64,000 bases of DNA from the human T2T-CHM13v2.0 reference genome, Homo sapiens: assembly GCF_009914755.1 (NCBI RefSeq), contig NC_060935.1, one strand, 5' to 3'. Positions 54,207 to 55,503 of the stretch are shown in pieces; the first letter of the stretch is position 1, and each line of letters starts with the position of its first letter. Made by a program: the position numbers and the translations under genes. Below the pieces are notes generated by a model. The model was given only the letters and a program-made list of their open reading frames with translations. It had not been told where the DNA came from and ran no database searches.

Positions 54207-54810
54207 AAAAAAATTGTAGGAGGAGGTGTGGCAAAAGCCAAATGGTATATTAATTTCCATAGGCCTATATGGCAGAGCATATAGAATAGTCCTTCTTAAG
54301 GCCAGAAGAGTTTTTTATTCCAAAACAGCATTATCAACTCAGAGTGACTTGTTTTAAATGAAGAATTGAGTTATTTTGGTGGTAAGGAGCAGGTTACCTC
54401 AAGTGGTTTAGGGTAAAAGTTTGTTGCGCATTTCATCATAAAAATAGGCATGTTGGAGAGCCCTGAGATGCTAAGCAGCCCAGTTTCAGGAAGAGTTGGG
54501 ATTCAAAAAGAGGGGGCTTCGGATTCAAGAAAGGGGTAGGGACCACAACAAAGTTGGAAGGTCTGGTTTCCTTGCAGCCAGACTTAATGGATAATGTATT
54601 CATTTGAACCGAGTCTCAGTTTCATCATCTGTAAAATGGAAATAACCATGTAATTGTTCTCTAACTAGACCGTTAACAATGTACGGCAGAACAATGAAAT
54701 CTAAGACCATTATAGGACCCGTGACCGGCTGGGTGGTGTTGATTTTTGCTGTTGTTGTTTTTACTTTTCTGTATTTTCCAAATGTTTTATAGTTAATTAT
54801 GCCTCCCTAC

Positions 54811-54931
54811 TTTTTTTTTTCCTTTTAATTACATTTATTTTAATGCTGAATTTACTCCCGTGCCATAAGTTTTGGCCCCCACGCTGCACCGGCGTCATCC
54901 GCCATTTGGTGTTTTCTCAGAAAAGAAGCAA
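54811..54931 (-). pseudogene. Chimeric processed pseudogene: RPS2 mRNA 5' end (54928-54874) + RPL17 mRNA 3' end (54873-54821) + poly(A)
   Basis: Minus strand reads CTTCTTTTCTGAGAAAACACCAAATGGCGGATGACGCCGGTGCAGCG (RPS2 TOP/5'UTR, MADDAGAA), then AAACTTATGGCACGGGAGTAAATTCAGCATTAAAATAAATGTAATTAAAAGG (RPL17 KLMARE*, 3'UTR, AATAAA), then an A tail. Flanked by direct repeat CCTCCCTACTTTTTT at 54802-54816 and 54932-54946. Confidence 0.88.
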
Positions 54932-55503
54932 CCTCCCTACTTTTTTGAAGAAAAGGCTCTCAAGGGCTAAAATAAGAGTTGCTAATCATGACAATCATCT
55001 CTACTTTGATCAAAAACTTAGAGTCAAAGTTCTTAGTATTCTTCAGCAAGCCCAATGTTCATCCACAAATTATTTCTGATACCTACAATGTGTAGATGCT
55101 AAAAATATGTTGAGAGAAACACAGAGTGGGATCAGACAAGGATCAGAACATCAAGGAGCACTGTCTGGTGGTTTGAAAAAACACATCTTCAAACAACTAT
55201 AAAACAAATTAAAAAGTATATAAAGGAGGTATAGGAAAATGTGTTGAACAGTTATCAGTGTGGTATATGCAATGCACATGTGAATAGGAATGGCTGAATG
55301 GTAAACTGGAGACAGATCATGAAAGCTAAAATGCCAGGTTAAGGAGCGTATTGTTAAATTGGAGGGCTGTAAGTAGCTATTGAAGGGTTTTTAAACTTTT
55401 ATTATTATTGGCCTGGCACGGTGGCTCACACCTGTAATCCCAGCACTTTTGGAGGCTGAGACGGGCAGATCATGAGGTCAGGAGATCGAGACCATCCTGG
55501 CTA

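What the first reader, a model, noticed from the sequence alone, without database searches (positions are those of the whole stretch)
54802..54946. Chimeric RPS2-RPL17 mini-retrocopy made from two different ribosomal-protein mRNAs in one insertion
Seen: on the minus strand, a pyrimidine-rich start CTTCTTTTC (54928) and AAAACACCAAATG lead into 11 codons. These join at ~54874/54873 to AAACTTATGGCACGGGAGTAA, a short 3'UTR with AATAAA (54839-54834) and an A tail. One 15-bp TSD (CCTCCCTACTTTTTT) brackets the whole unit, and the nick site TTTTTT/GA fits L1 endonuclease preference. Recalled: the 5' part matches the RPS2 mRNA start (5'TOP, MADDAGAAGGP) and the 3' part matches the RPL17 end (KLMARE*, ...AATAAATGTAATTAAAAGG). 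Inference: L1 ORF2p primed on the RPL17 poly(A), copied ~53 nt, switched template to RPS2 at a G-run, and ran to the RPS2 5' end. Described template-switch chimeras mostly involve snRNA (U6) with L1, Alu or mRNA. A tiny mRNA-mRNA chimera between two TOP mRNAs is unusual, is too short for most pseudogene pipelines, and hints that TOP mRNAs are co-packaged with L1 RNPs.
Basis: partly seen in the sequence, partly recalled or inferred. Interest (0 to 1): 0.9.

Follow-up and report, generated by a model that had tools for sequence, protein, structure and literature searches.

The report
Two-mRNA chimeric mini retrocopy (RPS2 + RPL17)
A 130-base insertion upstream of MRPL48 is a single LINE-1-made DNA copy that joins the first 55 bases of the RPS2 messenger RNA to the last 53 bases of the RPL17 messenger RNA: a clean, unannotated example of a rare but already described kind of event.

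Summary
Read on the minus strand, one exact 15-bp target-site duplication (54946-54932 and 54816-54802) brackets these parts:
- three extra bases, TTG;
- nt 1-55 of spliced RPS2 mRNA (54928-54874), crossing the exon 1/2 junction at 54909|54908;
- the last 53 nt of RPL17 mRNA (54873-54821), identical to the chr18 gene;
- a run of ten A.

The join is blunt. It has no microhomology and no filler, and it is not at a splice site. In this genome only the window joins the two halves. All 24 other RPS2 5' ends run on as RPS2. Of 27 other RPL17 3' ends, 26 run on as RPL17 and one was not checked.

It is one L1 target-primed insertion of a two-part cDNA. Most likely ORF2p jumped from a broken RPL17 3' fragment to a broken, capped RPS2 5' fragment. 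Ligation of the two RNA fragments before reverse transcription is a serious rival that the sequence cannot exclude.

Chimeric retrocopies that include mRNAs are already described, so this is a new member of a known kind. No function is expected. Interest is modest.

The parts
54932..54946 (.). Target-site duplication, copy next to the 5' end of the insert. On the + strand it reads CCTCCCTACTTTTTT. The inferred first-strand nick is TTTTTT/GA, between 54946 and 54947.
   Evidence: exact 15-nt repeat, the only one in 54600-55150. Chance expectation is about 1.4e-4.
54929..54931 (-). Three extra bases, TTG, between the TSD and RPS2 nt 1. The G is probably the copied cap and the TT is probably non-templated addition.
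   Evidence: The gene has GTT, not TTG, before CTTCTT. G is the base just 5' of CTTCTT in 8 of 9 other RPS2 retrocopies examined. Cap copying and extra 5' nucleotides: PMC2912911. ORF2p non-templated addition: PMC10830420. The assignment is inferred.
54909..54928 (-). RPS2 mRNA nt 1-20, which is exon 1 with its pyrimidine-rich start. It differs from the gene at nt 10 and nt 13.
   Evidence: exon 1 in L047 is 20 nt and is followed by GTGAGT.
54874..54908 (-). RPS2 mRNA nt 21-55, the start of exon 2. It holds the ATG at 54905-54903, then 10 codons plus 2 nt. It differs from the gene at nt 48.
   Evidence: The intron is absent, so the template was spliced mRNA. The gene continues CGGGGG after nt 55, whereas the window continues AAAACT.
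54821..54873 (-). Last 53 nt of RPL17 mRNA. It contains the final 6 codons plus 1 nt, the stop codon at 54854-54852, the 3' UTR and AATAAA at 54839-54834.
   Evidence: 53 of 53 identical to the intron-containing gene copy in L002. The gene's preceding base is A, whereas the window has C.
54811..54820 (-). Run of ten A: the poly(A) tail remnant. Its last six A overlap the TSD copy, and up to four could be templated by the gene's own AAAAG.
54802..54816 (.). Target-site duplication, copy after the A run.
54852..54905 (-). In-frame 17-codon fusion reading frame, MADDAGAAWGPKLMARE*. Both breaks fall after codon position 2. There is no evidence that it is expressed.
   Evidence: An in-frame join is expected one time in three by chance.

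Best explanation
This is a single L1-mediated, target-primed insertion of a two-part cDNA.

Proposed steps:
1. L1 endonuclease nicked the + strand at TTTTTT/GA, and the T run primed on a poly(A) tail.
2. ORF2p copied a 5'-truncated RPL17 mRNA fragment (its last 53 nt plus tail) to that fragment's 5' end.
3. ORF2p then jumped end-to-end onto the 3' end of a capped 5' fragment of spliced RPS2 mRNA (nt 1-55).
4. It copied that fragment through the cap, giving the extra G, and added two untemplated bases.
5. The cDNA was joined to the second, staggered nick 15 bp away, which produced the TSD.

Shown: the anatomy, the two sources, the splicing, the single TSD and the blunt join.
Inferred: that the join was made by a template jump, and that both RNAs were already broken.

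The insert is an inert, intergenic mini-pseudogene.
For: - One exact 15-bp TSD directly abuts the RPS2 5' end (plus 3 nt) on one side and the RPL17 A run on the other.
- The nick site is T-rich.
- The RPS2 part is spliced and starts at the transcript start, with the extra G seen in 8 of 9 other RPS2 retrocopies. Reverse transcription therefore ran to a capped 5' end.
- The RPL17 part ends at the same AAAAGG as all 19 retrocopies shown.
- Both parts have the same orientation, and the join has no shared base and no filler.
- The join is interior to RPS2 exon 2 and to the last RPL17 exon, with no GT/AG.
- The combination is single-copy in the genome: only the window matches positions 1-111.
- Purified ORF2p performs non-templated addition, and template jumping that concatenates copies of two templates (PMC10830420, passages).
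- Bipartite chimeras of cellular transcripts, flanked by direct repeats and in one orientation, are a described product of LINE reverse transcription (PMC2104539 background).
- Truncated mRNAs have been proposed as templates of short pseudogenes (PMC2831318, abstract and Results).
Against: - Nothing in the DNA distinguishes a jump made during reverse transcription from a join made earlier at the RNA level.
- The described class has full-length 5' partners. Here the 5' partner is 3'-truncated to 55 of about 950 nt, so the acceptor must have been a fragment or the landing was internal. Neither has been shown for ORF2p on mRNAs.
- No untemplated bases are seen at the internal join, although ORF2p often adds them.
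- No empty orthologous site could be examined, because no primate genomes are held and the flanks are unique in this genome.
Confidence: 0.55

Rival explanations
1. RNA ligation came first. An endonuclease-cut 5' fragment of RPS2 mRNA, ending in a 2',3'-cyclic phosphate, was ligated (RtcB-type) to a 5'-OH 3' fragment of RPL17 mRNA. The resulting RNA of about 110 nt plus poly(A) was then retrotransposed in trans by L1 as an ordinary full-length template.
For: - The join is blunt, with no microhomology and no filler.
- The unit looks like a full-length copy of one short capped, polyadenylated RNA, with the cap G at the 5' end.
- RtcB joins U6 to L1 and to other mRNAs before retrotransposition. 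The authors note that 3'-truncated small RNAs joined to L1 or to other cellular RNAs could arise from endonuclease products ligated by RtcB (PMC6789731, passages).
Against: - Ligation between two mRNA fragments has not been shown in the passages read.
- The RPL17 cut, A|A, does not fit a pyrimidine-specific RNase (the specificity is recalled, not checked here).
- It needs two cuts with the right end chemistry plus a ligation, against one jump by an enzyme already on the template.
Confidence: 0.33
2. Two separate insertions followed by a deletion. A full-length RPS2 retrocopy made the 15-bp TSD. A short RPL17 retrocopy later inserted into it after nt 55, in the same orientation. Recombination or slippage between the two poly(A) runs then removed the rest of RPS2.
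For: - Nested insertions do occur. One RPL17 retrocopy (L023, chr19) is interrupted by an Alu-like insert of about 340 nt.
- Two A runs could mediate a deletion.
Against: - The supposed second target, GCGGGGGGGCC|CGGGGG, is extremely G+C-rich and unlike the T-rich L1 nick site.
- No trace remains of a second TSD or a second tail.
- It needs three events that leave a perfectly clean unit.
Confidence: 0.05
3. This is a retrocopy of a genuine chimeric transcript, made by trans-splicing or read from a rearranged source locus that already joined RPS2 to RPL17.
For: Readthrough or spliced chimeric transcripts can be retrotransposed (recalled example: PIPSL; not checked here).
Against: - The break is inside exons on both sides and has no GT/AG.
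- The genes lie on chr16 and chr18.
- No other place in the genome holds the joined sequence (1 of 40 scored matches spans positions 1-111, and it is the window itself).
Confidence: 0.04

Closest known systems
Bipartite chimeric retrogenes/pseudogenes made by LINE reverse transcription (Buzdin, Gogvadze and co-workers). The class features are as listed in the background of PMC2104539. The primary 2003 paper, PMC169886, is not held.
   Same: - Two cellular transcripts are fused directly in the same orientation.
- The 3' part is a 5'-truncated, polyadenylated copy.
- The 5' part starts at the true 5' end of its RNA.
- The whole unit is flanked by short direct repeats.
- mRNAs are among the listed partners.
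   Different: - The 5' part here is not a full-length RNA. It is only the first 55 nt of an mRNA of about 950 nt.
- Both partners are mRNAs, with no snRNA, L1 or Alu involved.
- The total size is only 108 templated nt.
U6/L1 and U6/mRNA chimeric pseudogenes (PMC4476161; PMC6789731).
   Same: - One TSD.
- An L1 nick site.
- A blunt join of a 5' RNA to a 5'-truncated polyadenylated RNA.
- Mechanism debated between template switching and RtcB ligation.
   Different: U6 ends naturally in a 2',3'-cyclic phosphate and is used whole. An mRNA 5' fragment would first have to be cut.
Short (300 bp or less) mRNA pseudogenes found by TSDscan (PMC2831318).
   Same: - Very short, 3'-end-derived mRNA copies with an A run and a TSD of about 15 bp.
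- Missed by protein-based pipelines.
- Truncated mRNA templates proposed.
   Different: - Those derive from a single parent mRNA.
- Whether this locus is in their table could not be checked, because the supplements are .xls/.doc files and cannot be read here.
L1 chimeras with fragments of tRNA, 5S rRNA, 28S rRNA, U3 and mRNA (Law and Burns, bioRxiv 10.1101/2025.02.02.635956).
   Same: Partial RNAs are joined to a retrotransposed 3' partner inside one TSD, and truncation before reverse transcription is proposed.
   Different: The 3' partner there is always L1, so their pipeline does not look for mRNA-mRNA units.
LTR-retrotransposon-mediated chimeric retrocopies (PMC5131818).
   Same: Pieces of different parental genes are joined by reverse-transcriptase template switches.
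   Different: Those are flanked by LTR sequence, lack a poly(A) tail and TSD, and show microsimilarity at the joins. This unit shows none of those features.

Membership tests
L1-mediated (TPRT) retrocopy / processed pseudogene | Target-site duplication of about 7-20 bp flanking the insert | tested here: met
   Exact 15-bp repeat at 54802-54816 and 54932-54946.
L1-mediated (TPRT) retrocopy / processed pseudogene | 3' poly(A) run at the mRNA's own polyadenylation site | tested here: met
   Ten A follow AAAAGG, the same end point as in the 19 RPL17 retrocopies shown. The gene itself continues AAAAGAATG. The tail is short.
L1-mediated (TPRT) retrocopy / processed pseudogene | T-rich nick site resembling TTTT/AA | tested here: met
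   TTTTTT/GA on the + strand at 54946|54947. That this variant is a commonly used one is recalled, not tested.
L1-mediated (TPRT) retrocopy / processed pseudogene | Introns absent (template was spliced RNA) | tested here: met
   RPS2 exons 1 and 2 are contiguous in the window. The gene has an intron there, running from GTGAGT to CCCAG.
Bipartite chimeric retrogene (LINE template-switch class, features as listed in PMC2104539) | Two different cellular transcripts directly fused in the same orientation within one pair of direct repeats | tested here: met
Bipartite chimeric retrogene (LINE template-switch class, features as listed in PMC2104539) | 3' part is a 5'-truncated copy, with the truncation point not at a special site | tested here: met
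   The RPL17 part is the last 53 nt. The break is 26 nt inside the last exon.
Bipartite chimeric retrogene (LINE template-switch class, features as listed in PMC2104539) | 5' part is a full-length copy of its RNA | tested here: not met
   Only nt 1-55 of RPS2 mRNA are present. Full-length RPS2 retrocopies align over about 950 nt. The 5' end is complete and the 3' end is not. 3'-truncated 5' partners are known for U1, U3, U5 and 5S rRNA (PMC6789731).
Bipartite chimeric retrogene (LINE template-switch class, features as listed in PMC2104539) | Join made by reverse-transcriptase template switch rather than by prior RNA ligation | not testable with these tools
   The DNA product is the same under both routes.
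LTR-mediated chimeric retrocopy | Flanking LTR sequence, microsimilarity at the joins, no poly(A) and no TSD | tested here: not met
   A TSD and an A run are present, there is no shared base at the join, and the flanks are unique in the genome.

The most novel reading that the evidence does not exclude
The unit may be a DNA fossil of an RNA made by ligating two mRNA decay fragments: a capped 5' stub of RPS2 and a poly(A)-bearing 3' stub of RPL17, both broken after codon position 2. That would mean mRNA-mRNA fragment ligation happens in the germ line and is recorded by L1. If so, tiny TSD-bounded two-mRNA units could serve as a genome-wide archive of such ligations, and of which mRNAs sit together with L1 RNPs.
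Probability: 0.3. Interest if true: 0.55.

Novelty: new member of a known kind. Interest (0 to 1): 0.35.

Why it matters
It is an unusually clean specimen. Both sources are identified to the base, both breakpoints are unambiguous, there is no microhomology, the cap-derived G is present, and there is a single perfect TSD.

Units this small escape protein-based pseudogene catalogues. A dedicated scan for a 5' mRNA start joined to a different mRNA's 3' end inside one TSD could show three things:
- how often L1 joins two mRNAs;
- whether partner choice follows abundance or reflects co-localisation;
- whether junction features favour template jumping or RNA ligation.

On its own, the locus has no expected function and does not change current models.

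Tried and rejected
- Paralogous empty site: a 751-nt query around the insert found only the insert's own RPS2 and RPL17 relatives and nothing for the flanks (40 of 71 candidates scored). No pre-insertion sequence is therefore available in this genome.
- Other chimeras with the same partners: none found.
  - 25 places carry the spliced RPS2 5' motif with 3 or fewer mismatches, against 0 in the reversed control. Of these, 22 continue as RPS2, 2 more do so, and only the window stops at nt 55.
  - Of 27 other RPL17 3' ends seen were shown with upstream RPL17 sequence. These include the gene itself (L002) and L023, whose upstream part lies about 340 nt away across an Alu-like insert.
  - Of the remaining seven, five (C3:48147937, C18:62619064, C6:56713342, C17:68660513, C4:113449542) abut an upstream RPL17 match. 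C19:22268867 was not resolved.
  - The count of 26 of 27 rests. Both searches score only 40 candidates, so it is a lower bound on the copies that exist.
- RNA structure at the break: the first 120 nt of an RPS2 retrocopy fold no better than shuffles (z = -0.08). This gives no support for a structural cause.
- Ribosome-phased decay: the RPL17 fragment starts 19 nt before the stop codon. This does not match the -17 position I recall for 5'-3' decay intermediates, so the idea was dropped.
- Rfam: no match in 54600-55150 at E up to 1, so no snRNA or other known RNA is hidden in the unit.
- First divergence table: inflated by an intronic repeat matching flanking repeats. It was redone on exons only.
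- Literature: Buzdin 2003 could not be read. I could not check whether it lists an mRNA-mRNA case with a truncated 5' partner. The searches returned no paper describing an RPS2-RPL17 chimera. That is not proof that none is in print.
- Supplement tables of PMC2831318 could not be read.

Full report
**What is there.**
Read on the minus strand, 54946 to 54802, the unit consists of:
- a 15-nt target copy, AAAAAAGTAGGGAGG (54946-54932);
- three bases, TTG (54931-54929);
- 55 nt beginning with a pyrimidine tract and containing an ATG (54928-54874);
- 53 nt ending in a stop codon, AATAAA and AAAAGG (54873-54821);
- ten A, of which the last six belong to the second copy of the same 15-nt target sequence (54816-54802).

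The 15-mer is the only direct repeat of 10 nt or more within 54600-55150. About 1.4e-4 such repeats are expected by chance. No Rfam family matches the region.

**Where the halves come from.**
A search of the window's own genome with the 111-nt core found only the window itself spanning positions 1-111. All other matches cover either 1-58 or 59-111.

The 3' half:
- It is 53 of 53 identical to C18:49686229-49686281.
- That copy has an intron acceptor 26 nt upstream of the break and no poly(A) downstream. The other 19 copies shown are intronless, and 18 of those 19 are followed by an A-rich run (L028 is not).
- A full-length retrocopy ORF hits Pfam Ribosomal_L22 and PDB chains named 60S ribosomal protein L17.

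The 5' half:
- It belongs to a family whose intron-containing member lies on contig 16, in seven exon blocks.
- Exon 1 is 20 nt (CTTCTTTTCCGACAAAACAC), followed by GTGAGT. Exon 2 starts CAAATGGCGG after CCCAG.
- Retrocopy ORFs hit Pfam Ribosomal_S5 N and C domains and PDB chains named 40S ribosomal protein S2.
- The window carries nt 1-55 of the spliced mRNA, with the exon junction at 54909|54908. It differs from the gene at nt 10 (C>T in a CpG), nt 13 (C>G) and nt 48 (G>T).

**The joins.**
- Internal join (54874|54873). RPS2 would continue with C, while the window has A. RPL17 has A before the break, while the window has C. There is therefore no shared base and no filler. The break is interior to exons on both sides and lacks GT/AG. 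Both breaks fall after codon position 2, so a 17-codon fusion frame results. One join in three would be in frame by chance.
- 5' end. The base before CTTCTT is G in the window and in 8 of 9 other RPS2 retrocopies, whereas the gene has T. This fits reverse transcription of the cap, as proposed for full-length L1 and SVA insertions (PMC2912911, passages). The two further T are neither target nor gene sequence. Extra 5' nucleotides occur in 4-15% of insertions depending on type (same paper) and are explained by ORF2p non-templated addition (PMC10830420, passages).
- 3' side. The + strand reads TTTTTT/GA at the inferred first nick.

**One event or several.**
The TSD copies abut the RPS2 cap end on one side and the RPL17 tail on the other. 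This is what a single target-primed insertion of one continuous cDNA gives. A nested-insertion-plus-deletion history would need three things: an L1 insertion into GCGGGGGGGCC|CGGGGG, loss of its TSD and of the first tail, and a clean result. I rate it about 0.05.

A retrocopy of a pre-existing chimeric gene or trans-spliced RNA is unlikely. The break is not at splice sites, the genes are on different chromosomes, and no other joined copy exists.

**Is it a one-off?**
- RPS2 side. 25 places in the genome carry the spliced RPS2 5' motif, against 0 in the reversed control. Of these, 22 continue as RPS2 over some 290-400 nt and 2 more do so. Only the window stops at nt 55.
- RPL17 side. Of 27 other RPL17 3' ends seen continue upstream as RPL17 and one was not resolved. 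One copy that looked truncated (L023) is merely interrupted by an Alu-like insert of about 340 nt.
- These searches score only 40 candidates each, so older copies are under-sampled.
- The flanks of the insert are unique in the genome.

**Age (inferred).**
- Two RPL17 3' UTR sites sort 19 retrocopies by age. The 11 copies with the gene's T and G states differ from the gene's last two exons by 0.35-5.1%. The 8 copies with other states differ by 5.3-10.3%. The window has T and G.
- RPS2 nt 13 is G in the window and in all 8 of the 9 retrocopies that lack the gene's C, including one only 1.37% diverged. The gene's C is seen in a single copy at 1.48%.
- The unit itself has two private changes in 108 templated nt.
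- Together this points to an age class of roughly 1.4-5% divergence. With recalled primate rates of 1-2e-9 per site per year, that is on the order of 10-40 million years. The uncertainty is wide, and orthologous sites are needed.

**Mechanism.**
Two routes give this product.

(a) Template jump. ORF2p primed on the RPL17 tail, ran off the 5' end of a truncated RPL17 fragment, continued on the 3' end of an RPS2 5' fragment, and copied it to the cap. ORF2p makes such concatemers in vitro. Chimeras of cellular transcripts are the classical evidence for this route. Truncated mRNAs have been proposed as templates of short pseudogenes.

(b) Ligation first. RtcB joins U6 to L1 and to other mRNAs before retrotransposition. 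Its authors suggest that 3'-truncated small RNAs joined to other RNAs may arise the same way.

The blunt join fits both routes. I prefer (a), 0.55 against 0.33, because it needs fewer steps and uses an enzyme already on the template. No observation here decides between them.

A fold of the RPS2 5' region gave no signal. The position of the RPL17 break does not match a recalled ribosome-decay landmark.

**Comparison and novelty.**
- The unit meets the tested L1-retrocopy features: the TSD, the A run at the mRNA's own polyadenylation site, the T-rich nick site and the absence of the intron.
- It meets most features of the bipartite chimeric retrogene class. It fails 'the 5' part is a full-length RNA'. 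In this respect it resembles the 3'-truncated U1/U3/U5/5S chimeras and the fragment chimeras of Law and Burns.
- In the papers I could read I found no description of a unit made of an mRNA 5' stub and a different mRNA's 3' stub. However, the primary catalogue, Buzdin 2003, is not held, and the short-pseudogene table could not be read.
- I therefore file it as a new member of a known kind.

**The co-packaging idea.**
Ribosomal-protein mRNAs give about 2000 pseudogenes and about 20% of species-specific ones, so a second ribosomal-protein partner is unsurprising.

**Verdict.**
The unit is inert and intergenic, about 6 kb upstream of MRPL48. Interest is 0.35.

Noticed in passing
L012, L014-L018, L025, L026, L030 (RPS2 retrocopies), 5' ends: In 8 of 9 RPS2 retrocopies the base just before the first transcript base is G, where the gene has T. 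This fits a reverse-transcribed cap. Three of them, like the window, read TT(G/A) there, which is unexplained.
   Followed up: partly
L047 (RPS2 gene, contig 16) compared with the retrocopies, mRNA nt 13 and about nt 60: All 9 retrocopies read CCCGGAGGCCC (or a variant of it with the A) where the gene reads CCCGGGGGCCC. Eight of the 9 have G rather than C at nt 13. The youngest copies are only about 1.4% diverged. The gene's 5' region therefore seems to have changed recently, or this assembly carries a derived allele.
   Followed up: partly
L023 = G000:C19:8332641-8335692: This RPL17 retrocopy has its last ~70 nt separated from the rest by about 340 nt ending in an Alu-like tail (ctccatctcggaaaaaaaaaaaa). 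It is an Alu inserted into the pseudogene, not a chimera.
   Followed up: partly
window 54852-54905, minus strand: The two mRNA pieces are joined in frame and give a 17-codon ORF with an ATG in the RPS2 context and the RPL17 stop codon. There is no evidence of transcription or translation, and the chance of an in-frame join is 1 in 3.
   Followed up: no
L015 = G000:C14:99081274-99084327: In this RPS2 retrocopy the G run after the start codon has expanded to more than 20 G. This suggests the tract is slippage-prone.
   Followed up: no
L016 and L019, contig 17 at 19.39 and 19.45 Mb: An RPS2 retrocopy and an RPL17 retrocopy lie about 50 kb apart on opposite strands. This is probably coincidence.
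   Followed up: no
L055 = G000:C1:32314480-32314780: In this old RPS2 retrocopy the similarity to RPS2 stops at about mRNA nt 214. It may be truncated or interrupted.
   Followed up: no
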